Shown piece by piece: positions 1-34,582 of a DNA stretch of 34,832 bases; the first letter of the stretch is position 1; every line of letters starts with the position of its first letter. The notes under the pieces are model-generated. The model saw nothing but the letters and a program-made list of their open reading frames with translations. It ran no database searches and was not told the origin of the DNA. The DNA is from Nitrospirota bacterium (lineage in GTDB: Bacteria; Nitrospirota; UBA9217), in NCBI GenBank assembly GCA_037916085.1, contig JBAIYC010000081.1:1-34832 (forward strand). Reading direction: 5' to 3'. Both the position numbers and the translations under genes were made by a program.

Positions 1-309
1 GTCTTCGGAGTGTTGCCGAGCTTTGTCCCCATCGAAGACCTGTCAAAGCATTGGGGCAAGAAAGTGCATCAGTTCAACCATGATCTCCATGCGCCGACCG
101 GCTGGGGGTGGTTGTCGCTCATCAGCAAGGGCGACTATCTGAACTTTGTCGGCATCGCCATGCTGGCCGGTTTGACGATCGTCTGCTATCTCGCGATCCT
201 TCCGTCGCTGCTCAGGAAAAAGGACATGCCCTACGTGATCATCGGGATCGTCGAGGTCCTCGTGCTCACCCTGGCTGCAAGCGGCATCCTGAGGGGTGGG
301 GGACACTAG
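1..309 (+). CDS. C-terminal fragment of an integral membrane protein (5' end lies outside the window); family not recognised
   Basis: Frame +1 is open from base 1 to TAG 307-309. It has two hydrophobic helices (NFVGIAMLAGLTIVCYLAILPSLL and YVIIGIVEVLVLTLAASGIL). A hairpin terminator follows at 348-382. Confidence 0.5.
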   Translation, partial: VFGVLPSFVPIEDLSKHWGKKVHQFNHDLHAPTGWGWLSLISKGDYLNFVGIAMLAGLTIVCYLAILPSLLRKKDMPYVIIGIVEVLVLTLAASGILRGGGH

Positions 310-347
310 GACAGCGTACCAACAGCACCGGATCGATGCTCTTCTAC

Positions 348-382
348 GGGCGGCCGAAAAGCCGCCCGTTTCCTTTTCTTGT
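348..382 (+). terminator. Intrinsic terminator
   Basis: GGGCGGC (348-354), loop CGAAAA, GCCGCCC (361-367), then the T-rich run GTTTCCTTTTCTTGT. Confidence 0.7.
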
Positions 383-435
383 GTTCGCATACCGTTGCAT
401 TCTTCATCGCAAAGGTCCTTTGGGCACATTTTTTC

Positions 436-465
436 TTGACCTTGGGCGGCGGGAAGGAGTATACA
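436..465 (+). promoter_or_regulatory. Candidate sigma-70 promoter for the SulP gene
   Basis: TTGACC (436-441), 18 nt spacer, TATACA (460-465), about 45 nt upstream of ATG 510. Confidence 0.3.
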
Positions 466-509
466 TTCTGTCGTTTGCATTTCTATCCTACGTAGCAAGG
501 AACTTGACC

Positions 510-2240
510 ATGCCTGAATCGAAGCTCGAACCAAAGCTGCTTACCGTGATCCGCGAGGGCTATTCCGGGGAAATATTCTTTAAGGACCTCACCGCCGGCA
601 TCATCGTCGGTATCGTTGCGCTCCCTCTTGCCATCGCCTTCGCGATCGCGTCGGGTGTGACTCCCGAGCAGGGTCTCTACACGGCCATCGTTGCGGGGGT
701 CCTTATCTCTCTCTTGAGCGGGAGCAGGGTGCAGATCGGCGGACCCACCGGCGCATTCATCGTCATCATCTACGGCATTGTGCAGAAGTACGGCTACGAC
801 GGCCTTGTGGTGGCGACCATCCTGTCCGGGATCCTGCTCATCATCATGGGCGTGGCCAAGATGGGATCGGTGATCAAGTACATTCCCTATCCGGTCACCG
901 TGGGATTCACTGCGGGCATCGCGCTTATCATCGCGACAGGACAGATCCGCGACTTCCTCGGTCTGCAGATGGACAAGGTCCCCGCCGAGTTCGTGGAGAA
1001 GGTCGAAGCGTTCGTGGAGCATGCCGGAACAATCAGCCCGACAGCGGCGGCAATCGGCATTCTGACCCTCGTGATCGTGGTGCTGTGGCCGCGGGTGACC
1101 CGCCGCATACCGGGTTCGCTCGTAGCGATCATCGTGACGACGGCGATCGTCTCGATCTTTAAATTGCCGGTCGAGACCATCGGAAGCAGGTTCGGCGCCG
1201 TTTCGAGCACGCCGCCGACTCTGCATATGCCACACATAGACTGGTCGAAGATCCGGTACATGATCTCGCCGGCCATATCGATCGCGCTGCTTGCCGGCAT
1301 CGAATCGTTGCTCTCGGCTGTGGTCGCGGACGGTATGACTGGCCGCAGACATCGATCGAACATGGAACTGGTGGCTCAAGGTGTTGCGAATGTCGCATCG
1401 CCGTTCTTTGGCGGGATTCCTGCAACGGGGGCCATCGCCCGGACGGCCACGAACATCAAGAACGGGGCGCTCACGCCGGTCGCGGGGATCATTCATGCGG
1501 TCGTGCTCCTGCTCATCATGCTCTTCTTCGGCAAATGGGCTGCACTCATTCCCATGGCGACGCTCGCCGGCATCCTGATCGTTGTTTCCTACAACATGAG
1601 CGAGTACCACCTGTTCATCAAGATGTTCAAGAGCCCGAAAAGCGACATCGCGGTACTGATCGCGACGTTCCTGCTGACCGTGCTCGTCGACCTCACCGTA
1701 GCCATCCAGGCCGGAATCGTCCTGGCTGCGCTCCTCTTCATGAAGCGCATGGCGGATGTGACGCAGGTGGGCTATATCACGTCCATGATGGAGGACGAGG
1801 AGGACACGTCTGACCAGGATCCAAACGCCATCAAACGTTTCACGGTGCCGAAGGGTGTCGAGGTCTTCGAGGTCAACGGGCCCTTCTTCTTCGGTGCGGC
1901 CGACCGCTTCAAGCATGTGCTCTCGCTCATCGTGCAGAAGCCGAAAGTGCTGGTCCTCAGGATGCGGCCGGTGCTGTCGATGGATGCCACGGCCCTGCGT
2001 GCGCTCGAAGATGTCTATGAACAGACCCGGAAGGACGGAGCGGTCCTCATCCTGGCGGGCGTTCATACGCAGCCCATGATCACCATGGACAAGGCTGGCT
2101 TCTTGGACAAGATCGGCGTGGACAATGTGTTCGAGAACGTTTGTGACGCGCTCAGAAGGGCCAGGGAGATCGTGGGTGCCAAGCCGGTGCTTCGAGAATC
2201 GCAGATCCAGGAAGTCGGCTGGGAACAGGCAGACCGGTAG
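510..2240 (+). CDS. SulP-family anion (sulfate/bicarbonate-type) permease with C-terminal STAS domain
   Basis: ATG 510 lies in the 108..2240 frame; the upstream part of that ORF overlaps the previous gene and its terminator. SulP hallmarks are LTAGIIVGIVALPLAIAFAIASGV and GGPTGAFIVI, with many TM helices. The C-terminal block VEVFEVNGPFFFGAADRF...VLVLRMRPVLSMDATALRALEDV is STAS-like. Confidence 0.9.
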   Translation: MPESKLEPKLLTVIREGYSGEIFFKDLTAGIIVGIVALPLAIAFAIASGVTPEQGLYTAIVAGVLISLLSGSRVQIGGPTGAFIVIIYGIVQKYGYDGLVVATILSGILLIIMGVAKMGSVIKYIPYPVTVGFTAGIALIIATGQIRDFLGLQMDKVPAEFVEKVEAFVEHAGTISPTAAAIGILTLVIVVLWPRVTRRIPGSLVAIIVTTAIVSIFKLPVETIGSRFGAVSSTPPTLHMPHIDWSKIRYMISPAISIALLAGIESLLSAVVADGMTGRRHRSNMELVAQGVANVASPFFGGIPATGAIARTATNIKNGALTPVAGIIHAVVLLLIMLFFGKWAALIPMATLAGILIVVSYNMSEYHLFIKMFKSPKSDIAVLIATFLLTVLVDLTVAIQAGIVLAALLFMKRMADVTQVGYITSMMEDEEDTSDQDPNAIKRFTVPKGVEVFEVNGPFFFGAADRFKHVLSLIVQKPKVLVLRMRPVLSMDATALRALEDVYEQTRKDGAVLILAGVHTQPMITMDKAGFLDKIGVDNVFENVCDALRRAREIVGAKPVLRESQIQEVGWEQADR

Positions 2241-2283: not shown

Positions 2284-2313
2284 TTGACTCACGCAAGCTC
2301 CTTGTAGTACATT
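2284..2313 (+). promoter_or_regulatory. Candidate sigma-70 promoter for the hydrogenase-like operon
   Basis: TTGACT (2284-2289), 18 nt spacer, TACATT (2308-2313). It would give a leader of about 180 nt before ATG 2500. Confidence 0.35.
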
Positions 2314-2499: not shown

Positions 2500-4545
2500 A
2501 TGACAATCTCGCCGCTGCACATAGTCTCACTGTCATTCTTTGTCCTGTTCGCACTTCTCCTGATAACCCCGCTTCTCCGCCTGAACCAGAAACTCCTCGT
2601 AACGACCGGCTTTTCGCTCTTGGCCCTTGCTTCCCTTGGCGCGGTAATCGGGGGTGCGCTTGCGGTCGCCACGGGGACTGTCGAGACGTTTGTTCTCTCC
2701 GCAGGGCTTCCCGATCTGCCGTTCCATTTGCGGCTCGATCTCCTGTCCGGCTACTTTCTCGTCGTTGTCGGCCTCCTCGCCTTTTTCGTTTCTATCTATT
2801 CTATCGGCTACGTCCGGGGCTTCCTGGGACACCGGCCGGTAACAAGCCTGGTCGTATTCTATACGCTCTTTCTGGCGGGCATGCTCCTGGTGATCCTCGC
2901 TGACGATGCCTTCTTCTTTCTCATCGCTTGGGAGATGATGGCGGCTTCATCCTATTTTCTGGTGATGTTCGAAGATGAACGCATCGAGAACCGAAGGGCC
3001 GCTTTTCTGTACCTGGTGGTGGCTCACGTCGGCGCCATTGCCATCCTCCTGTCCTTCGGCGTCATGGCCGGCCTTGCCACGGGGTTCACAGGGTTCCAGA
3101 GCTATACCTTTGACGCGATGCGCGAGACGGAACTGCCGGCGGGGCTGGCGACCTTGGCTTTCCTCCTCGCGTTCTTCGGGTTCGCGGCAAAGGCGGGCGT
3201 GATCCCGCTCCATATCTGGCTGCCCGAGGCCCACCCTGTCGCTCCGTCGAACATATCCGCGCTCATGAGCGGCGTTATGCTCAAGACGGCGATCTACGGT
3301 ATCGTCCGCGTCGTCTTCGACCTGATCGGGGACTTTCCCTGGTGGTGGGGAGCCCTTGTGCTCGTCTTCGGCCTTGTATCGGCGGTCATGGGCGTTCTTT
3401 ACGCTCTCATGCAGCATGATCTCAAGCGGCTCCTTGCCTATCATTCCGTGGAGAATATCGGCATCATCCTGATCGGCATCGGGCTGTCCATGATCTTCCT
3501 GTCCTTCAACATGCAACTGCTAGCCGCGCTGGCCCTGATCGCGGGTCTCTATCACACGCTGAACCACGCGATGTTCAAGGGCCTGCTCTTCATGGGGGCA
3601 GGGGCAGTGCTCCATGCGACGCATGAGCGGAACATGGAGGAAATGGGCGGACTGATCCGCTTCATGCCCTGGACGTCTGTGCTGTTCCTCGTTGGTTGCA
3701 TCTCGATCTCAGCGCTACCGCCCTTCAATGGTTTCGTCTCGGAATGGCTGACATACCAGGCGTTCCTGCTCTCGCCCTCGCTTCCCAGCCCGCTGCTGAA
3801 CCTGCTCATCCCGCTCGGCGCGGCGCTCCTGGCGCTGACGAGCGCTCTTGCCGCGGCCTGCTTCGTAAAGGCCTTCGGCGTTACCTTCCTGGGCCATCAG
3901 CGGGGCCACCGGCATGGGCAGGTGCGGGAGGCAGGTTGGTCCATGCGCATCGGCATGTTGCTCGCTGCGCTCACCTGCCTGGGGCTCGGCGTCCTCCCGA
4001 CGCTCATGATACGCTGGATGGACCCTCTCGCCGAGGACCTGGTCGGAGGGTCGATCGGATCATCGGCGTCGGGGCTCGGATGGATGTGGCTCACTCCCAT
4101 CGCGGCCGAACGGGCGTCGTATGCGGCGCCGATCGCCTTTGTCGTGATCTTGGGGGTGGTGATGATCACCTACATCCTTCTGCACGCGAAGCCGGGCGCG
4201 ATCAGCCGCGTACCCCTCTGGGACTGCGGTTTCGAAAAGGTGACCAGCCGGATGCAGTATACGGCCACCTCATTTGCCATGCCGCTCCGAAGGATATTCG
4301 GGTTCCTTTTCAGCATCAAAGAGCATGTAAAGAGATTTGGAGCGAGCGCCCACCCGGCCTTCCCGGACCGCCTGCAGTATCATCTCCGGGTGCGGGACCG
4401 CTTCTGGATGTGGCTCTATCAGCCGGTCGTGGACGCGAGCTTCTGGCTTTCGCGCAGGATCGGCAGGATGCAGCAAGGGAAGATCCAGGTCTATCTCATC
4501 TATTCGTTCGTGACGATCCTGGTTTTGCTGATATTCTCTCAATGA
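2500..4545 (+). CDS. HyfB/NuoL-like antiporter-type membrane subunit of an Ehr/group-4-hydrogenase-like complex
   Basis: 681 aa and polytopic. NuoL/HyfB-type blocks are AWEMMAASSYFLV, LPEAHPVAPSNISALMSGVMLKTAIYG, KRLLAYHSVENIG and HTLNHAMFKGLLFMGAG. The strong SD GGGAGGGAAGAGA abuts the ATG. Confidence 0.9.
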   Translation: MTISPLHIVSLSFFVLFALLLITPLLRLNQKLLVTTGFSLLALASLGAVIGGALAVATGTVETFVLSAGLPDLPFHLRLDLLSGYFLVVVGLLAFFVSIYSIGYVRGFLGHRPVTSLVVFYTLFLAGMLLVILADDAFFFLIAWEMMAASSYFLVMFEDERIENRRAAFLYLVVAHVGAIAILLSFGVMAGLATGFTGFQSYTFDAMRETELPAGLATLAFLLAFFGFAAKAGVIPLHIWLPEAHPVAPSNISALMSGVMLKTAIYGIVRVVFDLIGDFPWWWGALVLVFGLVSAVMGVLYALMQHDLKRLLAYHSVENIGIILIGIGLSMIFLSFNMQLLAALALIAGLYHTLNHAMFKGLLFMGAGAVLHATHERNMEEMGGLIRFMPWTSVLFLVGCISISALPPFNGFVSEWLTYQAFLLSPSLPSPLLNLLIPLGAALLALTSALAAACFVKAFGVTFLGHQRGHRHGQVREAGWSMRIGMLLAALTCLGLGVLPTLMIRWMDPLAEDLVGGSIGSSASGLGWMWLTPIAAERASYAAPIAFVVILGVVMITYILLHAKPGAISRVPLWDCGFEKVTSRMQYTATSFAMPLRRIFGFLFSIKEHVKRFGASAHPAFPDRLQYHLRVRDRFWMWLYQPVVDASFWLSRRIGRMQQGKIQVYLIYSFVTILVLLIFSQ

Positions 4546-4566
4546 CATTGGAAACTCAAATGTCAT
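4542..4566. repeat. 8-bp perfect inverted repeat at the hyfB-like stop codon
   Basis: ATGACATT (4542-4549), 9 nt, AATGTCAT (4559-4566). It contains the TGACATTG motif that recurs at 4663-4670 and 9603-9610 (minus sense). Confidence 0.6.
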
Positions 4567-4675
4567 AATCCCGAAAGGTATATCCGGCAGCCCATGACCG
4601 AATACGGTACAACGACGCTCTTTGGTTCTTGGGTTATGATATGAACGTTGGACCCCGTCATGTGACATTGTTGTC

Positions 4676-5632
4676 GTGGAGCATGCGTTGATCGCCTATC
4701 CATACTTCATAGAGCTCCTTCAGGTCACGGCGCTGCTCGTCATGGCCCCGCTCTTTTCCGGCTGGGTCAAGATGGTGAAGTGCTGGTTCCAGGGGAGAAG
4801 TGCCCCGAGCATCCTGCAGCCGTGGCGCGACATCCTGAAACTCTTCTCCAAGGACGTGACCCTGGCTGAGAACGCCTCGTGGATATTCCGTTTCACGCCC
4901 TACCTGGTCTTCGGTGTGTCGGTCCTGGCGGGAGGAATCGTTCCGATCCTATCGATGGACCTGCCGCTGTCGGCGTCCGCCGATGTCATTGCGCTGGTTG
5001 CACTCTTCGCTATTGCCCGGTTCTTCACGGCGCTAGCCGGTATGGACATCGGGACCGCGTTCGGAGGCATGGGATCGAGCCGCGAGATGACGATCGCGTC
5101 GCTCGCCGAACCTGCCATGCTCATGGCGGTCTTTGCCGTATCCCTCGTAGCCAAGTCCACATCACTATCTCAGATGGCCCTGATCATATCCCAGGGGCAC
5201 TCGTTGCTCCGGCCCTCGCTGGTCTTCGCGCTTCTGGCCTTTGTCCTTATTGCACTGGCCGAGACGGGAAGGGTCCCGGTGGACAATCCTGCGACGCATC
5301 TGGAACTCACAATGATCCATGAGGCCATGGTCCTGGAGTATTCGGGCCGGCATCTCGCGCTCGTCGAATGGGCAAAGATGATGAAGCTGTTTCTCTTCGT
5401 GGCGCTCGGCATCGCCTCGTTCTTTCCCTGGGGGATCGCTTCGGGGGCCGGCCTTGTCGATGCTCTGGCGTCCGTTCCCCTTCTGGTCCTCAAGCTCGCA
5501 ATCACCGGTGTGGGGCTGGTTCTCGTCGAGACCGGGCTGGCAAAGATGCGGATTTTCCGGGTGACGGAGTTCCTGGGGTCGGCGTTCCTCTTCGCCACCC
5601 TCGGCATGCTGTCGTATTTCATGCTGGAATGA
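4676..5632 (+). CDS. HyfC/HycD/NuoH-like membrane subunit
   Basis: APLFSGWVKMVKCWFQGRSAPSILQPWRDILKLF and LAETGRVPVDNPATHLELTMIHEAMVLEYSG are NuoH/HycD signatures. A GTG start is assumed (TTG 4688 is an alternative) and there is no clear SD. Confidence 0.85.
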   Translation: MEHALIAYPYFIELLQVTALLVMAPLFSGWVKMVKCWFQGRSAPSILQPWRDILKLFSKDVTLAENASWIFRFTPYLVFGVSVLAGGIVPILSMDLPLSASADVIALVALFAIARFFTALAGMDIGTAFGGMGSSREMTIASLAEPAMLMAVFAVSLVAKSTSLSQMALIISQGHSLLRPSLVFALLAFVLIALAETGRVPVDNPATHLELTMIHEAMVLEYSGRHLALVEWAKMMKLFLFVALGIASFFPWGIASGAGLVDALASVPLLVLKLAITGVGLVLVETGLAKMRIFRVTEFLGSAFLFATLGMLSYFMLE

Positions 5633-5764
5633 ATTGGATGGCGGAATCGGGATCGCGAAGCAGGGGACGAAGATCTTCATGACCCTACGAGCGGAATCCG
5701 TGGGGGTTCTTTTGAATCACGTCGTCCCGAATCATGCCCGGGATAAGGAAGGAACGAGGGGCCG

Positions 5765-6430
5765 ATGAACATCCATCTTGCAACGCAGCTCAACAGCCTT
5801 CTTGCCTCATTGATCCTGCTGACGGCCTTTGCCTTGCTGGTGCAGCGCAGGATGAACGCTTTGCTCCATCTCTTCGCGTGGCAAGGACTCCTGCTTGCGG
5901 TGAGCACGGCGATCGTGGGATATCTGGGCGGCGCGCACGATCTCTATATATCGTCGATCCTGACGCTGACGATCAAGGTCGTCCTTCTTCCGTACATTCT
6001 GCACAAACTCATCGTTCAGCTGAAGATCCACAAGGAGATCGAGAGCGTCGTGAACGTGCCCGCGACCATGCTGATGGGCATCGTCCTGGTGATTTTCTCC
6101 TATCATCTGACAGCCCCGATCCGGGAGCTCTCGACTCTGGTGACCCGTTCGACCCTCGCTGTGGCCCTAGCAACGGTCATGCTCGGGTTCCTCATGATGA
6201 TCACGCGCAAACACGCGGTTACGCAGATCATCGGGTTCCTTGCGATGGAGAACGGCCTCCTCTTCGCGGCGACGAGCGCGACCTACGGCATGCCGCTCGT
6301 GGTCGAGCTGGGTGTTGCGCTGGACCTCCTGATAGCGGCCTTTATCTTCGGCATGTTCTTTTTCCACATCAGGACGACCTTCGACAGTCTTGACGTGGAC
6401 CAGATGGCGAGGCTGAAGGAAGAGGATTGA
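5765..6430 (+). CDS. HyfE-like small polytopic membrane subunit (NuoK-related)
   Basis: 221 aa and all hydrophobic helices. The motif GFLAMENGLLF is NuoK/HyfE-like. Size and operon position match HyfE, and the SD GGAAGGAACGAGGGG lies upstream. Confidence 0.8.
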   Translation: MNIHLATQLNSLLASLILLTAFALLVQRRMNALLHLFAWQGLLLAVSTAIVGYLGGAHDLYISSILTLTIKVVLLPYILHKLIVQLKIHKEIESVVNVPATMLMGIVLVIFSYHLTAPIRELSTLVTRSTLAVALATVMLGFLMMITRKHAVTQIIGFLAMENGLLFAATSATYGMPLVVELGVALDLLIAAFIFGMFFFHIRTTFDSLDVDQMARLKEED

Positions 6431-6551
6431 CGCGTGTCCGGGGAGGGCGAAAGTGACAAAGACAAACGAGCAGAGTTCAAACCGGTGCGTGTCGTTTGAT
6501 TTGAACGTTGACAGTGAACTTCATTCGTTAAGGCGGTCTTGAGGAGCCGGC

Positions 6552-8000
6552 ATGTCCCTTCTCATTCTCCTGATCGTACCGCTTGTCGCGTCCCTGGCCC
6601 TTGCTTTCATCGGCGACCGCAAGCTTGCTCCCGAGGTGAACATCCTCGGCTCTGCTGCCACGTTTGCCGCAAGCGTGCAACTCGCCCTCTACGTCTACGA
6701 GGAGGGCCCGATCCTGACCGGCGGCAACTTCTTCTACATCGACGCATTCAGCGTCTATCTGACGGTCCTCACCTCCTTCGTATCCATGACCACGTCGATC
6801 TTCAGCAGGCGTTACATGCGGCGCGAGCGAGAACACGGCACGGTTGGCCACCGCAGGATGCGCTTCTACCACTCGATGTTCCAGCTCTTCATCTTTGCGA
6901 TGCTGCTCTGCCTGCTCACGAACAACGTGGGGATCCTCTGGATATCCATGGAACTTGCCACGCTGTCCACCGTCCTGCTTGTGTCGCTCTACCGAACGCC
7001 AGCGGCCATCGAGGCCGCCTGGAAGTACTTCATCCTCTGCGGCGTCGGCATCGCTCTGGCGCTCTTCGGCACGGTGCTTCTCTACTTTGCCGCGGAGAAG
7101 GTTCTGGGGGCGGGAGGAGCGGCCCTCCACTGGACGAACCTGAGCAAGGTGAGCGATCAGCTGGAGCCCACGATCCTGTCGCTTGCCTTTGTGTTCCTAG
7201 TGGTAGGGTACGGGACGAAGGTCGGCCTCGTGCCCATCCATAACTGGCTTCCCGACGCGCACAGCGAGGGGCCGACCCCCATTTCGGCCGTTCTCTCGGG
7301 ACTGCTCCTGAACATCGCGCTCTATGCGCTCGTACGCTGTAAGGTGCTGGTCGACGGATCGACGGGCAACCATCATTCTGGAAATATCATGATGGGCTTC
7401 GGCATCATCTCCATCATGGTCGCGTCATTTTCCCTGCTCCGCCAGAAGGACATCAAGCGCATGTTCGCCTATTCCTCGATCGAACATATGGGCATCGCGA
7501 CGTTCGCCTTCGGTCTGGGGGGCCCGGTGGCAACCTTTGGCGCGCTGCTGCACATGCTTGTGCACAGTCTGACGAAGTCGTCCATCTTCTTTACGGTCGG
7601 CCATGCGGCACAGATGCACCGGACGCAGGAGATGGACCGCATCAAGGGACTCATCCGCGGGAACCCGCTCGTCGGATGGGGGATGGCGCTCGGCGTCATG
7701 GCGATCGTGGGAATGCCGCCGTTCGGCGTCTTTGCCAGCGAGTTCCTGATCCTGACTGCGGCTATCAAGGACGCTCCGCTTCTTGCGCCCTTCCTGCTCT
7801 TGGGCCTCGGGGTGTCCTTTGCAGCCTTGTTCCGCAGGGTCCAACCCATGGTATCGGGGCATGTTCCGCCGCACCAGAAGGGGCTCAGGGCGTCCCATGT
7901 GCCGGTGATCTTGCATATGCTCGTGGTCCTGATCCTCGGTCTGTACATGCCCAAATTCCTCTCTGGATGGTTCCAGACAACGGTAGGAGTATTGAAGTAG
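6552..8000 (+). CDS. HyfF/NuoN(M)-like antiporter-type membrane subunit
   Basis: WLPDAHSEGPTPISAVLSGLLLNIALYA, KRMFAYSSIEHMG and HSLTKSSIFF are present, and the SD GAGGAG lies upstream. Confidence 0.9.
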   Translation: MSLLILLIVPLVASLALAFIGDRKLAPEVNILGSAATFAASVQLALYVYEEGPILTGGNFFYIDAFSVYLTVLTSFVSMTTSIFSRRYMRREREHGTVGHRRMRFYHSMFQLFIFAMLLCLLTNNVGILWISMELATLSTVLLVSLYRTPAAIEAAWKYFILCGVGIALALFGTVLLYFAAEKVLGAGGAALHWTNLSKVSDQLEPTILSLAFVFLVVGYGTKVGLVPIHNWLPDAHSEGPTPISAVLSGLLLNIALYALVRCKVLVDGSTGNHHSGNIMMGFGIISIMVASFSLLRQKDIKRMFAYSSIEHMGIATFAFGLGGPVATFGALLHMLVHSLTKSSIFFTVGHAAQMHRTQEMDRIKGLIRGNPLVGWGMALGVMAIVGMPPFGVFASEFLILTAAIKDAPLLAPFLLLGLGVSFAALFRRVQPMVSGHVPPHQKGLRASHVPVILHMLVVLILGLYMPKFLSGWFQTTVGVLK

Positions 8001-8030
8001 GACAGAAACAATGTATACGAAGAATATCCT

Positions 8031-9602
8031 ATGAGCCGACTGAAGCAGGTCATAGAAACCACCTTCGGTCCTGACGCAAAGCACGATGCGGGCCAGCAGC
8101 CATCGGACGTGGTAGCCTTTCTTGTGCCGAGGGCCAGGTTTGCCGAAGCGGCGAAGGCGCTCAAGAAGGAATACGCGCTGCTTGCCGCTGAATGGGCTTC
8201 CGATGAAACGCCTTTCGGGAGGGGCTTCGGTATCTATGCCTGTTTCCGGAAGGAAAGCGAATATCTCATCGTCAAGACCATCGTTCCTCTCGACGATCCT
8301 ACCTTTCCGAGCCTGACGAAGAAATTCGTTCCCGCATTCCGCTTCGAGAGGCAGATGCAGAGCCTCATGGGGGTGACGGCCAACGGCCATCCGGACTCAC
8401 GGCCGTGGATCAAGCACGAGGATTGGCCGGCGGAAGCGTGGCCGCTCAGGAAGGCATTTTCTGCGTCGCAGAGACTGCCGCGAGTGGCAGGCGAATACCG
8501 CTGGGTCCGGGCGGACGGGGAGGGAATCTATGAGATCCCGGTTGGGCCGGTGCACGCAGGGATCATCGAACCGGGCCATTTCCGTTTCCAGGCAATGGGC
8601 GAAGATATCATCAATTTGGAAGAGAAGCTGGGGTATGTCCACAAGGGCATCGAAAAACGGTTCGAGTCCATGACCTGGCAGGATGCTGCCCGTCTAGCAG
8701 CTCGTGTTTCCGGCGACACGACCGTCGCTCACAGTCTTGCTTATGCGAGGGCAGTCGAGTCGCTCACGGGGTGCATCGTCCCGGAGCGGGCGCATTGGCT
8801 GCGCGCGCTGTTCCTGGAGCGGGAGCGTATCGCGAACCACCTGGGAGATCTCGGCGCGATCTGCAACGATGTTGCGTTTGCGTTCCTTCTCTATCAGCTG
8901 CACAGGCTGAAGGAGGACGTCCTGCGCACCAACCAGAGGCTTTTCGGCCACCGCTTCCTGATGGACCGGGTCGTGCCGGGCGGCGTGACCGCGGACATCG
9001 ATGCCGAAGGCACCAGTGCGATCCTTGCCGAGCTCGAGATGATTGAGCGCGAGTTCGCCCGCCTCGTGCTGATCTACGACGAGAATGCTTCGGTTGAGGA
9101 CCGGGTACGCGATACCGGCATCCTGTCGTCTGGCAAGGCCCGGGACCTCGGGGTCGTGGGGTTCGTCGCGCGGGCCAGCGGACTGAACCTCGATTGCCGC
9201 ATCCAGCATCCGTTCCCGCCCTATGATCGCATCGCGGTAACGATCCCCGTGCTGGTGAGCGGTGACGCCCATGCACGCGCATGGATCAGGATCGAAGAGG
9301 TTCGCGATTCCATCCGCATCATCCAGGAGATCCTGCGGACGCTTCCCCAAGGGGCGGTCTCGGTGCTGCCGGGTCCGCCAACTGCGGACAGGGCTGGATT
9401 CGGCGCGGTCGAAGGGTGGCGCGGGGAGATCATCACCTGGGTACAGTCCGGACCGAAGGGGGAGATCAATCGCTGCATGGTCCGGGACCCCTCGAGCGTG
9501 AACTGGCTGGGTCTCGAGCAATGCATCTTCGGGAACATCGTTCCAGACTTTCCGCTCTGCAACAAGAGCTTCAACCAGTCGTACTCGGGAAATGATTTGT
9601 GA
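8031..9602 (+). CDS. Fused NuoC-NuoD / HycE-HyfG-like 'large subunit' lacking the [NiFe] cysteine ligands (Ehr-type)
   Basis: The N-terminal ~150 aa are NuoC-like. The blocks EIPVGPVHAGIIEPGHFRF and EEKLGYVHKGIEK are typical of group-4 large subunits. The L1 site reads ARVSGDTTVAH instead of RxCGxCxxxH. The L2 site reads VPDFPLCNKSFNQS instead of DPCxxC. Confidence 0.85.
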   Translation: MSRLKQVIETTFGPDAKHDAGQQPSDVVAFLVPRARFAEAAKALKKEYALLAAEWASDETPFGRGFGIYACFRKESEYLIVKTIVPLDDPTFPSLTKKFVPAFRFERQMQSLMGVTANGHPDSRPWIKHEDWPAEAWPLRKAFSASQRLPRVAGEYRWVRADGEGIYEIPVGPVHAGIIEPGHFRFQAMGEDIINLEEKLGYVHKGIEKRFESMTWQDAARLAARVSGDTTVAHSLAYARAVESLTGCIVPERAHWLRALFLERERIANHLGDLGAICNDVAFAFLLYQLHRLKEDVLRTNQRLFGHRFLMDRVVPGGVTADIDAEGTSAILAELEMIEREFARLVLIYDENASVEDRVRDTGILSSGKARDLGVVGFVARASGLNLDCRIQHPFPPYDRIAVTIPVLVSGDAHARAWIRIEEVRDSIRIIQEILRTLPQGAVSVLPGPPTADRAGFGAVEGWRGEIITWVQSGPKGEINRCMVRDPSSVNWLGLEQCIFGNIVPDFPLCNKSFNQSYSGNDL

Positions 9603-9724
9603 CAATGTCAAAGAAGAAAGCCCGCATGTCGACTCATGCAACGAGAGGCAAAGGCCAGGATCGACATTGCATTTGCGCTTTGCGTCGGCAGATGTTTCTT
9701 GAACAGTAAGTTCCTGGTGATCCC

Positions 9725-10231
9725 ATGATACGCATCCTAAAACAGATATTCCGCACCGGCGTTGTGACGGAGCCTTTGCCGCCGGTCACAGACCCGGAGA
9801 TCGAGAAGATCGGCGTGCAGCTCGAGGAGGCCATCCAGCGCCGCTTCCGACGCAGCCTGACCATCCGTCAGGTGGATTCCGGTTCGTGCAACGGCTGCGA
9901 GCTTGAGATCCATGCGATGAACAACGTCTATTACAACTGCGAGCGCTTCGGTATCCATTTCACGGCCTCGCCGCGCTTCGCCGACATGCTGCTCGTGACC
10001 GGACCCGTCTCCCATAACATGGAGATCGCCCTTCGGAGGACCTACAATGCGACTCCATCGCCCAAGATCGTGGTCGCAGTCGGCGATTGCGGGTGCAATG
10101 GAGGGATCTTCGGCGAAAGCTATGCGTCTTTGGGAGGCATCGGCCGAGTCATCCCCGTGAACGCGGTCATCCCGGGATGTCCTCCGACGCCGACAGCATT
10201 GCTTCAGGGCATCCTGAAAGCCCTTGGATAG
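9725..10231 (+). CDS. NuoB/HycG/HyfI-like small subunit with intact [4Fe-4S] ligands
   Basis: DSGSCNGCELEI, VGDCGCNGGIFG and IPGCPPTP supply the four conserved cluster cysteines of the NuoB/group-4 small subunit family. Confidence 0.9.
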   Translation: MIRILKQIFRTGVVTEPLPPVTDPEIEKIGVQLEEAIQRRFRRSLTIRQVDSGSCNGCELEIHAMNNVYYNCERFGIHFTASPRFADMLLVTGPVSHNMEIALRRTYNATPSPKIVVAVGDCGCNGGIFGESYASLGGIGRVIPVNAVIPGCPPTPTALLQGILKALG

Positions 10232-10285: not shown

Positions 10286-10314
10286 TTGCCACCCGTTATG
10301 CGCTCAGCTATAAT
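10286..10314 (+). promoter_or_regulatory. Sigma-70 promoter for the DUF2147-like gene
   Basis: TTGCCA (10286-10291), 17 nt spacer, TATAAT (10309-10314). Confidence 0.55.
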
Positions 10315-10375
10315 GCAGTCGAGCAAAGGCGAAGATTCCCTTCTCGTCGAAAGCAGTGTCCAAAGAGGTGAACAG

Positions 10376-10840
10376 ATGAAAGTGCTGGCACGGATCGCCG
10401 TCGTCGTTGCCCTTGTGACTGTTGGTATTCCTGCTGTGGTTTGGGCTGTGCAGGCAGATGATATCCTCGGCGTCTGGTTCAACGCCGAGAAGGACGCGAG
10501 GATCGAGATCGTGAAGTGCGGCGAACGGTACTGCGGGAAGGTCGTCTGGCTCAAAGAGCCCAACTACCCTGAGGGATCGAAGGATGGGATACCGGGAACG
10601 CCGAAGTTGGACCATAACAATCGCGACGGGGCCCGCAGCAAAGACCCGATCATCGGCCTCGAGATCGTCCGGGATTTCCGGTACGCAGGCGACAACCTCT
10701 GGAAGGACGGAACGGTCTACGATCCCAAGAATGGGAAGACGTATCATGGCAAAATGACTCTGGTGTCCCCGGAGAGGCTTGATCTCCGAGGCTTCATCGG
10801 CATTTCTCTGCTAGGCAGGACCGCGACCTGGACGCGCTGA
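10376..10840 (+). CDS. Secreted DUF2147-like protein
   Basis: ATG 10376 is preceded by AGAGGTG. The signal peptide is MKVLARIAVVVALVTVGIPAVVWA. GVWFNAEKDARIEIVKCGERYCGKVVWL...YDPKNGKTYHGKMTL matches my recollection of the DUF2147 pattern. Confidence 0.7.
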   Translation: MKVLARIAVVVALVTVGIPAVVWAVQADDILGVWFNAEKDARIEIVKCGERYCGKVVWLKEPNYPEGSKDGIPGTPKLDHNNRDGARSKDPIIGLEIVRDFRYAGDNLWKDGTVYDPKNGKTYHGKMTLVSPERLDLRGFIGISLLGRTATWTR

Positions 10841-19210: not shown

Positions 19211-20581
19211 ATGAGCGATGCGCGCATACTCATCATGGATGACGATCCGAGGGAGCGCAGCAAGATCGAGGCAGCCCTTCGGCAGAAGGGGTACGACGTG
19301 GTCGGGTTAGGGACAGCGCCTGAAGCGATCGAGGCGCTCAGGAGAGACCACTTCGACGTCATGCTGACGGACTGCACCATCCCTGGTGTCGACGCTCTTC
19401 AGGCATCGGGAGAAGCCCGGAAGATCAATCCCGACCTGGCAGTGATCATCATGACAGCCTACGGCACCATCGAGACCGCGGTGAAGGCCATCAAGGCGGG
19501 CGCTTACGATTACCTTGCGAAGCCCATCGATCTGGACCAGCTTGCAGTGCTGGTCGAGCGGGTGTCGGAACGGCAGGGCCTGATCCGCGAGAACAGCGAA
19601 CTGCGGGAGCAGCTCCGGGAACGGTACAAGTTCGAGGAGATCACGGGTACGAGCCATGCCATGGAGGAGGTGCTGAACCTGGCCGGCCGGGTGGCCGGCA
19701 GCAGTGCGACGGTCCTCCTCCGGGGCGAAAGCGGAACCGGCAAGGAACTGATCGCCCGCGCCATCCATTACCACAGTCCCCGTGCGGCTGCGCAGTTCAT
19801 CAAAGTGAACTGTGCGGCCCTGCCGGAAACGCTGCTGGAAAGCGAGCTGTTTGGCCACGAGAAGGGGGCGTTCACCGGCGCTGCTGCACGACGCATCGGG
19901 AGGTTCGAACTTGCGGACCGGGGGACGCTCTTCCTCGACGAGATCGGCGATATTTCGCCGGCCGTGCAGATCAAACTGCTCCGGGTTCTGCAGGAGCGGG
20001 AGTTCGAACGGCTCGGGGGGAACCAGACGATCAAGGTTGACGTGCGGCTGATAGCGGCGACGAACCGCGATTTGGAGCAGGCCATGCGGGAAGGCAGGTT
20101 CCGCGAGGACCTGTACTACCGACTGAACGTTGTGACCGTGACGATACCGCCGTTGCGGGACCGGAAAGAGGATATCCCAGCGCTCATGGAGCATTTCATC
20201 GAGAAGTACAGTGCGGCGAACCGGAAGAAGATTTCCGGTGTCACCGCAGAAGCACGGGAGCTCCTGATGCGGTATTCCTATCCCGGAAACGTGCGGGAAC
20301 TTGAAAACATCATGGAGCGCGCCGTCGTGCTGTCGAAGGGCGGGAACATCGCTACGGTGGACCTTCCCATCCACCTGCGAACCACTGAGAGCGACGAGAA
20401 ACTCTGCGTCAAGAAGAAGGGGTCATCGCTCAACGAAACGCTGGATACGGTGGAGCGGGGGCTCATTCTAGAGGCGCTCAAGGAAGCCGGCGGTGTGCAG
20501 ACCCGGGCGGCGGAGAAGCTGGGTATCAGCGAGCGGGTGCTTCGGTACAAGCTGTCTAAGTACAAGATAAAGGAACAGTGA
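19211..20581 (+). CDS. NtrC-family sigma-54-dependent response regulator (REC-AAA+-Fis HTH)
   Basis: The receiver has MDDD, the phospho-acceptor in VMLTDCTIPG, IMTAYG and LAKP. The AAA+ domain has Walker A GESGTGKE, GAFTGA and LFLDEIG. The C-terminal HTH is TRAAEKLGISERVLRYKL. Confidence 0.95.
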   Translation: MSDARILIMDDDPRERSKIEAALRQKGYDVVGLGTAPEAIEALRRDHFDVMLTDCTIPGVDALQASGEARKINPDLAVIIMTAYGTIETAVKAIKAGAYDYLAKPIDLDQLAVLVERVSERQGLIRENSELREQLRERYKFEEITGTSHAMEEVLNLAGRVAGSSATVLLRGESGTGKELIARAIHYHSPRAAAQFIKVNCAALPETLLESELFGHEKGAFTGAAARRIGRFELADRGTLFLDEIGDISPAVQIKLLRVLQEREFERLGGNQTIKVDVRLIAATNRDLEQAMREGRFREDLYYRLNVVTVTIPPLRDRKEDIPALMEHFIEKYSAANRKKISGVTAEARELLMRYSYPGNVRELENIMERAVVLSKGGNIATVDLPIHLRTTESDEKLCVKKKGSSLNETLDTVERGLILEALKEAGGVQTRAAEKLGISERVLRYKLSKYKIKEQ

Positions 20582-33991: not shown

Positions 33992-34009
33992 GTCGCCGGG
34001 GGCGCAACG

Positions 34010-34195
34010 ATGAAACGACCGGTCGTGGACCAGGATCTCTGCATCGGCTGCGGTCACTGTGCCGAGGTCTGTCCGCAGGTGTTCGAAATCGAAGAGGAGA
34101 AGTCACAGGTCATCGGACCGAGCAGGTGCGATACCTGCAACTGCCAGGAAGCGATTGACACCTGTCCGGTGCAGGCGATCAGCTGGGGTGAATAG
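34010..34195 (+). CDS. Small single-cluster ferredoxin
   Basis: 61 aa with CIGCGHCAEVCP ... DTCP (Cx2Cx2C...CP). Confidence 0.8.
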   Translation: MKRPVVDQDLCIGCGHCAEVCPQVFEIEEEKSQVIGPSRCDTCNCQEAIDTCPVQAISWGE

Positions 34196-34351
34196 ATCAA
34201 GAACGGGGGGATGGTCGTCGATCCTGTCTCAGACCGCAGCCAGATCGACCGACGCGGGATTCAGGGGCTGTATCGTTACGCATCAGGTCAGGCATCTTCC
34301 GGAAGAGTTCTCGTGAGGGGGCCGAGGCCATGTTCGAGAAGGAGGGCTGCG

Positions 34352-34582
34352 ATGGCAAATGTAAAGGTGACGCTCGACAGGGATCAGTGCACCAGCTGCG
34401 AATCATGCTGGACGATCTGCCCGGAGGTCTTTGAACAGAATTCCATGGACAACTGGAGCCAGGTCGTTGCGAAATATCAGGTAGGAGGCGATCCGTCTAT
34501 CGGCCAGTTTCCGGATGCCCTGCGGGACAAGGTGCAGGAGGCCGCGGATTCCTGCCCGGTTGCGATCATCCATGTCGGATGA
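34352..34582 (+). CDS. Small single-cluster ferredoxin (second copy)
   Basis: ATG 34352 is preceded by GAAGGAGGG. 76 aa with CTSCESCWTICP ... DSCP. Confidence 0.75.
   Translation: MANVKVTLDRDQCTSCESCWTICPEVFEQNSMDNWSQVVAKYQVGGDPSIGQFPDALRDKVQEAADSCPVAIIHVG

What the first reader, a model, noticed from the sequence alone, without database searches (positions are those of the whole stretch)
2500..10231. Six-gene complex-I-like module with an Fe-S cluster but no visible electron-input subunit or maturation genes
The operon encodes NuoL-like (2500), NuoH-like (4676), HyfE/NuoK-like (5765), NuoN-like (6552), NuoCD-like (8031) and NuoB-like (9725) subunits. The NuoB-like subunit keeps all four [4Fe-4S] cysteines (SCNGCE, GDCGCNGG, PGCPP). 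The module therefore keeps the ion-translocating arm and the terminal cluster. It lacks a NuoI/HycF/HyfH/EchF-type 2x[4Fe-4S] subunit, HyfA, HyfD, a formate dehydrogenase, and any hyp/hycI maturation genes within the window. The flanking genes appear to have their own candidate promoters (the 2284-2313 site upstream, after the SulP gene, and the DUF2147-like gene at 10286-10314 downstream). How electrons reach or leave the single cluster, and what is reduced at the degenerate active site, is open. The adjacent SulP/STAS anion permease could hint at an anion or bicarbonate connection, but that is pure speculation.
Basis: partly seen in the sequence, partly recalled or inferred. Interest (0 to 1): 0.7.

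Follow-up and report, generated by a model that had tools for sequence, protein, structure and literature searches.

The report
Cysteine-less hydrogenase-like complex (Ehr/Hyq)
This is a Nitrospirota copy of an already described six-gene, complex-I-like membrane complex (called Ehr, Hyq or "hyfBCEFGI") that has lost its nickel-iron site but keeps one iron-sulfur cluster and intact ion channels; its function is still unknown, and its gene neighbours in many bacteria hint at bicarbonate/anion handling.

Summary
The six ORFs are real, at the stated coordinates. They encode HyfB-, HyfC/NuoH-, HyfE-, HyfF-, HycE/NuoCD- and HycG/NuoB-like proteins. The small subunit keeps its four [4Fe-4S] cysteines. 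All four NiFe cysteines of the large subunit are replaced. No NuoI/HycF, HyfA, Fdh or hyp gene lies in the window, or within 10 kb of the operon in 80 related species. The thing is not new. The same hyfBCEFGI cluster is published for Nitrospira ("Ehr", function unknown), Acidithiobacillus and Cupriavidus. In Azorhizobium caulinodans it is the "Hyq endo-hydrogenase, a core six-subunit complex I". My additions: (1) The ex-NiFe site is not degenerate. It is an invariant new motif (R-x-S-G-D-S/T ... N-K-S-F-N-x-S-Y-S-G-x-D). (2) Every key antiporter and E-channel residue is invariant, and dN/dS is 0.03-0.09. (3) The ferredoxin-like module is ancestral and was lost only in this crown clade. (4) SulP permeases of at least four subfamilies, and carbonic anhydrases of three classes, recur next to the operon. 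Best reading: a redox-coupled ion-translocating Ehr/Hyq complex with unknown partners.

The parts
108..2240 (+). SulP/SLC26-type anion permease with a C-terminal STAS domain. The longest ORF is given. The gene call in the 99%-identical contig L004 corresponds to a start near 510. It ends 259 nt before hyfB.
   Evidence: PF00916 7.8e-86 and PF01740 6e-18. Best NCBIfam match is DauA-like, 552 bits, below the cut-off; the sulP subfamily match is above its cut-off. SulP lies directly upstream of hyfB in 8 of 59 loci with enough flank, from at least 4 SulP subfamilies.
2284..2313 (+). Weak sigma-70-like promoter candidate upstream of hyfB (TTGACT-18-TACATT, 9/12).
   Evidence: Site counts are not above shuffles. 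No sigma-54 -24/-12 match on the + strand in 2241-2499. The upstream region is not conserved in relatives.
2500..4545 (+). hyfB/hyqB-like subunit: NuoL/MrpA-type antiporter-like, 681 aa.
   Evidence: NF005086 818 bits. Invariant in 65 species: E145, K231, K262, H352, H356, K360 and E415. These align with NuoL/M/N E144, K229/K234, K265, H334, H338, K342 and E407. dN/dS 0.05-0.08.
4676..5632 (+). hyfC/hyqC-like subunit: NuoH/HycD-type membrane subunit that joins the peripheral and membrane parts, 318 aa.
   Evidence: PF00146 5e-36. Invariant acidic chain E145, D203, E210, E216 and E221, aligning with E. coli NuoH E157, D213, E220, D223 and E228.
5765..6430 (+). hyfE/hyqE-like small membrane subunit (NuoK/J-related), 221 aa.
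   Evidence: NF008556 1.7e-27. PF00420 is weak. Conserved K71, E162 and E181. It is the most conserved subunit: 93% identity to relatives, dN/dS 0.03-0.04.
6552..8000 (+). hyfF/hyqF-like subunit: NuoM/N-type antiporter-like, 482 aa.
   Evidence: NF005045 762 bits. Invariant E134, K223, H334, H338, K342 and E397 in 69 species.
8031..9602 (+). hyfG/hyqG/ehrL-like large subunit: a NuoC-NuoD fusion of 523 aa with the four NiFe cysteines replaced by a conserved polar motif.
   Evidence: 7z0s_E at 1.7e-60. RVSGDTTVAHS replaces RVCGICGFAHS, and NKSFNQSYSGNDL replaces IGSLDPCYSCTDR. Conservation: S227 68/70; G228 and D229 70/70; S/T230 69/70; N511, K512 and S513 70/70; S517 66/70; Y518, G520 and D522 70/70. 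The complex-I quinone ligands are absent: Y273 of NuoCD aligns with G228, and H224 with I179.
9725..10231 (+). hyfI/hyqI/ehrS-like small subunit (NuoB/HycG type), 168 aa, with one [4Fe-4S] site of the hydrogenase CxxC type and no extra Fe-S domain.
   Evidence: 7z0s_G at 1.9e-36 and MbhJ at 7.7e-35. C55, C58, C122 and C152 are conserved 61-62/62. All clade members are 157-190 aa.
10286..10840 (+). Unrelated downstream gene (DUF2147, probably secreted) with its own strong promoter-like site at 10286-10314. Its likely start is ATG 10376. It marks the 3' end of the operon.
   Evidence: PF09917 3.3e-37. TTGCCA-17-TATAAT, 11/12. Sequence read.

Best explanation
What it is. The locus is a Nitrospirota member of the known Ehr/Hyq family (annotated 'hyfBCEFGI'). 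This is a self-contained six-subunit descendant of group-4 (4f-like) membrane [NiFe]-hydrogenases. It has lost the NiFe ligands and the ferredoxin-like (HycF/NuoI) relay.

What it keeps:
- One [4Fe-4S] cluster on the NuoB-like subunit.
- A re-modelled, strictly conserved polar pocket where the NiFe centre (or, in complex I, the quinone head group) would sit.
- A complete ion-translocation apparatus: a NuoH-like E-channel, HyfE, and two antiporter-like subunits.

Most likely mechanism (inferred). It works like a minimal complex I. The redox state of the single cluster changes through electron exchange between the membrane quinone pool and a still unidentified soluble partner or small substrate. 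That partner would dock directly at the HyfG/HyfI surface or pocket. The change is coupled through HyfC to H+ or Na+ movement in HyfE/F/B. The direction may be reversible.

It is not a canonical NiFe hydrogenase and not a formate hydrogenlyase.

Shown versus inferred. Shown: the composition, the conserved residues, purifying selection, and the absence of linked redox partners. Inferred: the redox coupling, the quinone as one partner, and the identity of the other partner.
For: - Family and structure matches.
- The BCEFGI order is found in nearly all of the best 80 of at least 597 matching species. In most lineages the genes overlap by 1-16 nt, which suggests translational coupling of a stoichiometric complex.
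- The four cluster cysteines are conserved 61-62/62. The ex-NiFe motif is invariant in 70 species.
- All canonical Glu/Lys/His residues of both antiporter-like subunits, and the acidic residues of NuoH, are invariant.
- dN/dS is 0.03-0.09 for all six genes.
- No HycF/NuoI, HycB/HyfA, FdhF, Hyp or NuoEFG lies within 10 kb in 84 loci by BLAST and motif scan.
- None is found among the 129 nearest neighbour genes by Pfam.
- Sister clades (CCCC and some Cys-less) do carry a HycF-like gene or a Cys-rich extended HyfI, so the relay was lost secondarily.
- The literature assigns the same cluster to Ehr/Hyq: PMC3357923, PMC2650096, PMC12342949, PMC10284858.
Against: - No electron donor or acceptor is identified.
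- The complex-I quinone ligands (Tyr/His) are absent, so quinone binding is unproven.
- With only one cluster, electron entry and exit sites are conjecture.
- Genetic work in A. caulinodans links the orthologous operon to H2 uptake and evolution (PMC3357923). A non-hydrogenase model does not explain this.
- The recurring SulP and carbonic-anhydrase neighbours point to a transport or pH role that need not involve redox turnover.
Confidence: 0.55

Rival explanations
1. Energiser of anion/inorganic-carbon or pH homeostasis. The complex is chiefly an ion pump, or a vectorial device, that works with the adjacent SulP (bicarbonate-type or other anion) permease and a carbonic anhydrase. This would be analogous to cyanobacterial NDH-1MS/CupA, DabAB, or the gamma-CA module of plant complex I. 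The Fe-S cluster powers or merely gates it.
For: - SulP lies directly upstream on the same strand in Nitrospirota, Methylococcales, two betaproteobacterial groups and Thiobacillus. The SulPs are 33% identical or less between groups. Positional enrichment: P about 2e-6, or 6e-4 after collapsing to lineages.
- A TauE/TSUP anion permease is present in 6 loci, and in L004, the window's own species.
- Carbonic anhydrases of three classes abut the operon. Beta-CA: L011. Gamma-CA/CcmM-like: L023, L040, L160. CsoSCA-like: L022, L147, L165.
- An independent note reports a beta-CA next to hyf, and carbon-fixation genes next to another hyf copy, in A. caldus (PMC3826726).
- Many hosts are chemolithoautotrophs.
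Against: - Only about 11% of loci show such neighbours.
- Alphaproteobacterial operons are instead nif-regulated (PMC2650096).
- SulP-CA pairing is common in its own right.
- The SulP substrate is unknown. The window's SulP scores best as DauA-like.
- No Zn-type ligand set appears in HyfG.
- No CA is in this window.
Confidence: 0.2
2. Unorthodox H2:quinone oxidoreductase ('endo-hydrogenase') as proposed for A. caulinodans Hyq. The complex oxidises or evolves H2 at a non-NiFe site in HyqG.
For: - Deletion of hyqRBCEFGI slowed diazotrophic growth. It also removed about 80% of microaerobic H2 evolution, including in a nifK background (PMC2650096; PMC3357923, read).
- The window's proteins share gene order, subunit sizes and motifs with the Bradyrhizobium and Azospirillum operons that those authors call orthologous.
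Against: - All four metal-ligating cysteines are absent, and no conserved Cys or His set replaces them.
- The three Cys called conserved in alphaproteobacterial HyqG are variable across the family: C278 40/70, C510 34/70, and position 516 is Q in the window.
- No hyp genes are linked in 164 loci.
- Ehr is not induced by H2 in N. moscoviensis (PMC12342949).
- It is not detected in A. ferrooxidans grown on H2, and HydDB calls it a non-hydrogenase (PMC7735108).
- The in vivo H2 phenotypes could be indirect.
Confidence: 0.12
3. pmf-driven reverse electron transport. Quinol electrons are pushed uphill to a ferredoxin or flavodoxin that docks directly on HyfI. This would supply low-potential reductant for the reductive TCA cycle (Nitrospira) or for nitrogenase (diazotrophs).
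For: - Hosts are enriched in organisms that live on high-potential donors or fix N2: Nitrospirota, Gallionella, Mariprofundus, Thiobacillus, Acidithiobacillus, Bradyrhizobium, Azospirillum, Methylococcales.
- A. caulinodans hyq belongs to the nif regulon, and its loss impairs diazotrophic growth (PMC2650096).
- Loss of the HycF relay would expose the cluster-bearing subunit (inference).
Against: - Only two antiporter-like subunits are present. By analogy with complex I, this gives too few H+ per 2e- to reach ferredoxin potential from ubiquinol (established bioenergetics; my inference).
- No ferredoxin or flavodoxin gene is linked in any locus.
- Heterotrophs without such needs also carry the operon.
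Confidence: 0.1
4. Decaying remnant of a hydrogenase operon with no present function.
For: - Ligand loss and subunit loss.
- Occasional disrupted copies: a 3.4-kb insertion between hyfE and hyfF in L001; a fragmented second copy in L003; a fragmented hyfC in L067.
Against: - All six ORFs are intact.
- dN/dS is 0.03-0.09.
- Functional residues are invariant across phyla.
- At least 597 species carry relatives.
Confidence: 0.01

Closest known systems
Hyq 'endo-hydrogenase' of Azorhizobium caulinodans (hyqRBCEFGI; PMC2650096, PMC3357923)
   Same: - The same six structural genes in the same order.
- HyqG is a NuoC::D fusion lacking both CxxC motifs.
- HyqI has four Cys, at 55, 58, 112 and 152 (here 55, 58, 122 and 152).
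- The authors describe it as a core six-subunit version of complex I.
- Bradyrhizobium and Azospirillum operons, which those authors call orthologous, are 45-49% identical to the window's large subunit and share its motifs.
   Different: - The window has no hyqR-like HTH gene. That gene is present directly upstream in 13 other loci.
- The window has no sigma-54/NifA promoter.
- The host is a Nitrospirota bacterium, not a diazotrophic alphaproteobacterium.
- The inter-gene spacers are long.
- The A. caulinodans sequence itself could not be fetched, so the comparison is indirect.
Ehr (Ech-hydrogenase-related) complexes, including Nitrospira Ehr / 'hyfBCEFGI' and Geobacter sulfurreducens EhrA-S (PMC10284858, PMC12342949, PMC5596200, PMC7894505, PMC6349859)
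   Same: - A group-4-like large subunit without NiFe ligands.
- Phylogenetically next to group 4f.
- Antiporter-like subunits are present.
- The function is stated as unknown.
- About half of Nitrospirales genomes carry it.
   Different: Ehr is a loose label that also covers complexes with other subunit sets, some with ferredoxin-like or Fdh partners. The window belongs to the crown clade with exactly six subunits and a short HyfI.
E. coli hydrogenase-4 (HyfA-J) and formate hydrogenlyase-1 (structure 7Z0S)
   Same: Best sequence and structure matches for every subunit. The same membrane-subunit types and the same CxxC-type proximal cluster.
   Different: - E. coli has the NiFe cysteines, HyfH/HycF, HyfA/HycB, HyfD, FdhF, and hyp/hycI maturation. 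None of these is present here.
- E. coli HycG and HyfI are 252-255 aa, against 168 aa here.
Respiratory complex I (Nuo/Nqo)
   Same: Homologous NuoB, C, D, H, L/M/N and K/J modules. The coupling residues are conserved.
   Different: - No NuoEFG or NuoI.
- No NuoA.
- Only two antiporter-like subunits.
- No Tyr/His quinone ligands.
- A CxxC cluster motif rather than tandem CC.
CO2-hydrating complex-I relatives (cyanobacterial NDH-1MS with CupA; DabAB). Comparison from general knowledge.
   Same: Antiporter-like subunits are genetically linked to inorganic-carbon genes. Here the links are SulP and beta-, gamma- and CsoSCA-like carbonic anhydrases in a minority of loci.
   Different: No CupA or DabA homologue. 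No CA in this window. The linkage is statistical, not universal.

Membership tests
Ehr/Hyq six-subunit complex | Group-4-type large subunit (NuoC-NuoD fusion) lacking all four NiFe-ligating cysteines | tested here: met
   C->S227, C->T230, C->S517 and C->G520 against HycE. The same replacements are seen in 66-70 of 70 relatives.
Ehr/Hyq six-subunit complex | NuoB-like small subunit with four Cys for one [4Fe-4S] cluster and no further Fe-S domain | tested here: met
   C55, C58, C122 and C152. Length is 168 aa; the clade range is 157-190 aa.
Ehr/Hyq six-subunit complex | Gene set and order hyf/hyq B-C-E-F-G-I with no hyfA, hyfD, hyfH, hyfJ | tested here: met
   The same order is found in nearly all of the 84 loci compared (43 show the complete B-C-E-F-G-I with nothing else recognised beside it; most others are the same order cut by a contig end or flanked by SulP, a regulator or a second hyf copy; a few carry hyfI first).
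Ehr/Hyq six-subunit complex | Direct orthology to the experimentally studied A. caulinodans Hyq proteins | not testable with these tools
   The A. caulinodans sequence was not retrievable. Indirect support comes from the Bradyrhizobium and Azospirillum loci (L053, L079, L052), which PMC3357923 lists as orthologous. L053 HyqG is 503 aa with Cys at the reported 491/497 positions.
[NiFe]-hydrogenase group 4 (Hyf/Hyc, 4f) | L1 (RxCGxCxxxH) and L2 (DPCxxCxxH/R) metal-binding motifs | tested here: not met
   The window has RVSGDTTVAHS and NQSYSGNDL.
[NiFe]-hydrogenase group 4 (Hyf/Hyc, 4f) | Ferredoxin-like 2x[4Fe-4S] subunit (HycF/HyfH/EchF), or a fused equivalent | tested here: not met
   None in the window or in 84 loci. 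It is present in CCCC relatives and in some Cys-less sister clades.
[NiFe]-hydrogenase group 4 (Hyf/Hyc, 4f) | Maturation genes (hypA-F, endopeptidase) in the genome | tested here: inconclusive
   Absent from the 34.8-kb window and from all flanks. The rest of the genome is not available.
Formate hydrogenlyase | Linked formate dehydrogenase (FdhF) and HycB/HyfA | tested here: not met
   No hit in the window. One weak FdhF-like hit (23% identity), 2.3 kb downstream of hyfI in L018, is the only hit in 84 loci.
Respiratory complex I | NADH module NuoEFG, NuoI, and the Tyr/His quinone ligands of NuoD | tested here: not met
   (Y273 aligns with G228, H224 with I179).
Mrp cation/proton antiporter | MrpA-G set including MrpE/F/G, and no NuoB/D/H-like subunits | tested here: not met
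   Only MrpA/D-like (HyfB, HyfF) and NuoK-like (HyfE) parts are present. NuoB, NuoCD and NuoH homologues are present.
DAB / NDH-1MS CO2-hydrating systems | DabA or CupA partner protein | tested here: not met
   None is detected in the window. In other loci the only CA-type neighbours are of the beta, gamma and CsoSCA-like classes.

The most novel reading that the evidence does not exclude
The Ehr/Hyq complex is a redox- or gradient-powered engine for inorganic-carbon/anion uptake or cytoplasmic pH control. It acts together with a SulP-family (bicarbonate-type) permease and a carbonic anhydrase. That would make it a third, independent case of a complex-I-derived machine recruited for CO2/HCO3- handling, after cyanobacterial NDH-1MS and DabAB. 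It would be widespread in nitrifiers, in iron and sulfur oxidisers, and in methanotrophs.
Probability: 0.12. Interest if true: 0.75.

Novelty: already known. Interest (0 to 1): 0.3.

Why it matters
It sits in environmentally important chemolithoautotrophs and diazotrophs. About 15 years after its first description it still has no agreed function.

Knowing its function would fill a gap in the energy budgets of nitrite, iron and sulfur oxidisers. It would also show how far a complex-I-type coupling machine can be stripped down.

The window adds no new kind of system. The comparative results here sharpen the question:
- The replacement motif at the ex-NiFe site is invariant.
- The ferredoxin relay was lost secondarily.
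- SulP and carbonic-anhydrase genes recur next to the operon.

They point to low-CO2 and low-pH phenotypes as concrete tests.

Tried and rejected
- Hidden small subunit in the spacers: rejected. ORFs there are 44 aa or fewer, with no Cys motifs.
- Structured or known RNA in the spacers or leader: rejected. Fold z-scores run from -0.03 to +1.46. Rfam gave nothing below E = 0.8.
- Repeats shared by the spacers: only one weak 27-nt pair, treated as chance.
- Sigma-54 promoter upstream of hyfB, expected from the A. caulinodans NifA/sigma-54 control and from sigma-54 regulators in 19 loci: not found. Genome-wide matches are below shuffle expectation.
- Conserved regulatory block upstream of hyfB among Nitrospirota relatives: none.
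- Conserved redox partner in neighbourhoods, tested by BLAST clustering within 6 kb and by Pfam of the 129 nearest genes: none found. The recurring neighbours are regulators, SulP, TauE and lineage-specific synteny such as MetRS.
- Canonical quinone site: rejected on ligand identity.
- Pseudogene decay: rejected.
- The Marreiros et al. 2013 Ehr paper could not be read, so its subtype definitions are taken only from citing papers.
- The first MAFFT run timed out and was repeated with faster settings.
- Structure prediction was not run. Sequence matches to solved FHL chains already span the proteins, and the tool returns no coordinates for measuring cluster exposure.

Full report
**1. Observation**

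The window carries six same-strand ORFs at exactly the coordinates given. Profile searches identify them as follows:
- HyfB-like: NF005086, 818 bits.
- NuoH/HyfC-like: PF00146, 5e-36.
- HyfE-like: NF008556, 1.7e-27.
- HyfF-like: NF005045, 762 bits.
- A NuoC-NuoD fusion of the HycE/HyfG type: PF00329 plus PF00346.
- NuoB/HycG-like: PF01058, 3.7e-29.

The closest solved structures are the E. coli formate hydrogenlyase chains HycE (7z0s_E, 1.7e-60, aligned over residues 79-522) and HycG (7z0s_G, 1.9e-36). Pyrococcus MBH follows, and then complex I.

The small subunit has the SCNGCE, GDCGC and PGCPP motifs. In the large subunit the HycE motif RVCGICGFAHS reads RVSGDTTVAHS. The C-terminal DPCYSCTDR reads NQSYSGNDL. 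All four NiFe cysteines are therefore gone.

Pfam and NCBIfam scans of every long ORF in the 34.8-kb window found no NuoI/HycF/HyfH, HyfA/HycB, FdhF, Hyp or HycI. The spacers hold only ORFs of 44 aa or fewer. A CxxCxxCxxxCP scan found only a 61-aa ferredoxin at 34010-34195, 24 kb away.

**2. Where it comes from and how common it is**

The nearest homologues (76-99% identity) come from Nitrospirota/Nitrospiraceae assemblies. They include Nitrospirota, Mariprofundus, Gallionella, Sideroxyarcus, Thiobacillus, Acidithiobacillus, Methylococcales, Bradyrhizobium, Azospirillum, Paraburkholderia, Acidobacteriaceae, Rokubacteria and Chloroflexia.

A full HMMER search of 1.84 billion cluster representatives gave 1184 clusters at E <= 1e-30. 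Among the best 150, about 100 lack the cysteines and about 20 have all four.

**3. It is already described**

The same hyfBCEFGI operon was reported:
- in 'every NOB-like' Nitrospira genome (PMC5596200);
- as an Ehr complex 'phylogenetically close to group 4f' that lacks the CxxC motifs, function unknown (PMC10284858);
- as present in 'about half of all' Nitrospirales genomes and not induced by H2 (PMC12342949).

Six-gene hyfBCEFGI clusters were also noted as 'incomplete hyf operons' in Cupriavidus metallidurans and C. necator (PMC2864759). In Acidithiobacillus ferrooxidans HydDB classed the catalytic subunit as a non-hydrogenase, and the proteins were not detected on H2 (PMC7735108).

In Azorhizobium caulinodans the cluster is hyqRBCEFGI. 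It is described as 'a core (6 subunit) version of (14 subunit)' complex I. HyqI has Cys 55, 58, 112 and 152, and HyqG lacks both CxxC motifs. Deleting it slowed diazotrophic growth and removed most microaerobic H2 evolution (PMC2650096, PMC3357923).

The authors list Bradyrhizobium and Azospirillum as having orthologous operons. My loci L053, L079 and L052 from those genera have the same order and motifs and are 46-49% identical to the window's large subunit. The finding is a rediscovery of a known, unsolved complex.

**4. What the comparison adds: the site**

The ex-NiFe site is not degenerate. Across 70 species:
- S227 is kept in 68/70.
- G228 and D229 are kept in 70/70.
- S/T230 is kept in 69/70.
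- N511, K512 and S513 are kept in 70/70.
- N515 is kept in 67/70, and S517 in 66/70.
- Y518, G520 and D522 are kept in 70/70.

Part of the motif (DFPLxNKSF) is shared with the CCCC relatives. The Ser/Gly replacements and the new Asp are specific to the Cys-less forms.

The two residues that bind the quinone head group in complex I are not present. E. coli NuoCD Y273 aligns with the invariant G228, and H224 aligns with the invariant I179. The three cysteines that the Azorhizobium authors called conserved are variable across the family.

**5. What the comparison adds: the machine is intact**

The four cluster cysteines are conserved in 61-62 of 62 sequences.

Both antiporter-like subunits keep every canonical residue, invariant in 65-69 species:
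- HyfB: E145, K231, K262, H352, H356, K360 and E415.
- HyfF: E134, K223, H334, H338, K342 and E397.

HyfC keeps the acidic chain that aligns with NuoH E157, D213, E220, D223 and E228. HyfE keeps two membrane glutamates.

Against three Nitrospirota relatives, dN/dS is 0.03-0.09 for all six genes. dS is saturated, so these are rough values.

In most lineages the genes overlap by 1-16 nt. The pseudogene rival is excluded.

**6. What the comparison adds: the missing relay**

In the best 80 genome loci plus 4 contigs, no HycF/NuoI, HycB/HyfA, Hyp or NuoEFG homologue lies within 10 kb. The only FdhF-like hit is a weak one (23% identity) 2.3 kb downstream of hyfI in L018. Pfam of the 129 nearest neighbour genes shows no ferredoxin, flavodoxin or dehydrogenase family recurring. 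All HyfI proteins of this clade are 157-190 aa.

A metagenome scan seeded with the CCCC relatives gave a different picture. The true-hydrogenase forms often have a 112-115-aa HycF-like gene between G and I, or a 240-310-aa HyfI with 11-17 cysteines. So do several Cys-less sister groups.

In a neighbour-joining ordering rooted on E. coli HycE, the CCCC forms are basal. Cys-less forms with extra Fe-S modules are intermediate. The window sits in a large crown clade that is uniformly Cys-less and relay-less.

The absence of a NuoI-type subunit is therefore real, derived, and typical of the Hyq-type clade.

**7. Neighbours**

Recurring neighbours are:
- two-component/sigma-54 regulators, in 19 loci;
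- a small HTH_3 gene directly upstream, in 13 loci, probably the hyqR equivalent;
- SulP-STAS permeases, in 12 loci;
- TauE/TSUP permeases, in 6 loci.

SulP lies directly upstream on the same strand in these groups:
- the window, L004 and L001 (Nitrospirota);
- L012 and L032 (Methylococcales);
- L021;
- L022 (Thiobacillus, 12-nt gap);
- L050.

The SulPs belong to at least four subfamilies that are 33% identical or less to each other. A simple positional test gives P about 2e-6, or 6e-4 after collapsing to lineages. In L004, the window's own species, the order is TauE, a 139-aa ORF, SulP, then hyfBCEFGI.

Carbonic anhydrases of three classes abut the operon:
- a Can-type beta-CA in L011;
- gamma-CA/CcmM-like proteins in L023 and L040 (between TauE and hyfB) and in L160 (after hyfI, in a Nitrospira-type operon);
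- a CsoSCA-like protein with CxDxR and Hx9C motifs in L022, L147 and L165.

An A. caldus genome paper independently noted a beta-CA next to one hyf cluster and carbon-fixation genes next to another (PMC3826726).

This is a minority pattern, about 11% of the 164 loci.

**8. Operon boundaries in the window**

The upstream promoter-like site (2284-2313) is weak. The DUF2147 gene downstream has a strong site (10286-10314), and it probably starts at 10376. No sigma-54 site precedes hyfB.

The 120-130-nt spacers between genes are peculiar to this Nitrospirota lineage. They are unstructured, match no Rfam family, and share no convincing repeat.

**9. Mechanism**

The following are shown:
- a six-subunit composition under strong selection;
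- one conserved cluster site;
- a conserved polar pocket at the position that holds NiFe in hydrogenases and the quinone head group in complex I;
- a complete proton/ion path.

From these I infer a minimal complex-I-like coupling device. Reduction and oxidation of the single [4Fe-4S] cluster, and protonation changes around D229/K512, would be transmitted through HyfC to HyfE/F/B. One redox partner is probably a membrane quinone. The other would be a soluble carrier or small substrate that docks where HycF once sat, or in the pocket.

I put 0.55 on this general reading. The rivals are:
- a transport/pH/DIC-centred role with SulP and CA: 0.2. It overlaps with the main reading if the pump is redox-driven.
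- the published non-NiFe hydrogenase proposal: 0.12.
- pmf-driven ferredoxin reduction: 0.1.
- decay: 0.01.

**10. Verdict**

The interest of the finding as such is low to moderate.

The open functional question is genuine. The invariant replacement motif, the stepwise loss of the relay, and the SulP/carbonic-anhydrase linkage are useful leads rather than discoveries of a new kind.

Noticed in passing
window 4546-4675, 5633-5764, 6431-6551, 9603-9724: Spacers of 121-132 nt separate four of the five hyf gene junctions (the fifth, hyfF-hyfG, is 30 nt) here and in the closest Nitrospirota relatives. In almost all other lineages the genes overlap by 1-16 nt. The spacers are not structured (z from +0.5 to +1.5), match no Rfam family, and encode nothing convincing.
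   Followed up: yes
window 4542-4569: A promoter-like site (ATGACA-16-CATAAT with an upstream TG, 10/12) sits right after the hyfB stop codon. It is a possible internal promoter for hyfC-I.
   Followed up: no
L001 5087-8234: In a 76%-identical relative the operon is split between hyfE and hyfF by a 3.4-kb insertion. The insertion carries a UPF0175/DUF3368 pair, an SDH_protease-family gene and a T5orf172 gene, and looks like mobile or defence cargo.
   Followed up: partly
L002 1-4513, L005 107-4509, L003 214-4414: Related Nitrospirota carry a second, divergent (about 40% identity), also Cys-less E'-F'-G'-I' set directly upstream of hyfB. In L003 that copy is fragmented.
   Followed up: partly
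L001 12342-14540; L003 12496-14717: A triheme cytochrome c7 gene and two uncharacterised genes (one with an MJ0711_N domain) follow hyfI in L001 and L003; the two uncharacterised genes also follow hyfI in L005 and L006. The window has a DUF2147 gene there instead. In L001 NikR and a CbiMQO-type Ni/Co transporter lie 2.5 kb further on.
   Followed up: partly
L022 12295-13353; L147 14632-15765; L165 14347-15462: A 352-377-aa protein family with a weak but consistent CsoSCA (carboxysome-shell carbonic anhydrase) catalytic-domain match and CxDxR / Hx9C motifs. It is encoded next to hyfBCEFGI and SulP. It may be an undescribed cytoplasmic CA subclass.
   Followed up: partly
window 32666-34582: A COX1-like (heme-copper oxidase subunit I family) ORF is followed by a 61-aa 2x[4Fe-4S] ferredoxin (34010-34195) and a 123-aa ORF with one ferredoxin motif. 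This is an unusual pairing, unrelated to the hyf operon.
   Followed up: no
window 19211-20581: A sigma-54-dependent response regulator (NtrC type) lies 9 kb downstream. Regulators of this type are adjacent to the operon in 19 other loci, but no sigma-54 promoter was found before hyfB here.
   Followed up: partly
window 10286-10840: The DUF2147 gene probably starts at ATG 10376 rather than at the longest-ORF TTG. ATG 10376 has the RBS AGAGGTG and a signal-peptide-like N-terminus. This places the strong promoter-like site 10286-10314 upstream of the gene.
   Followed up: partly
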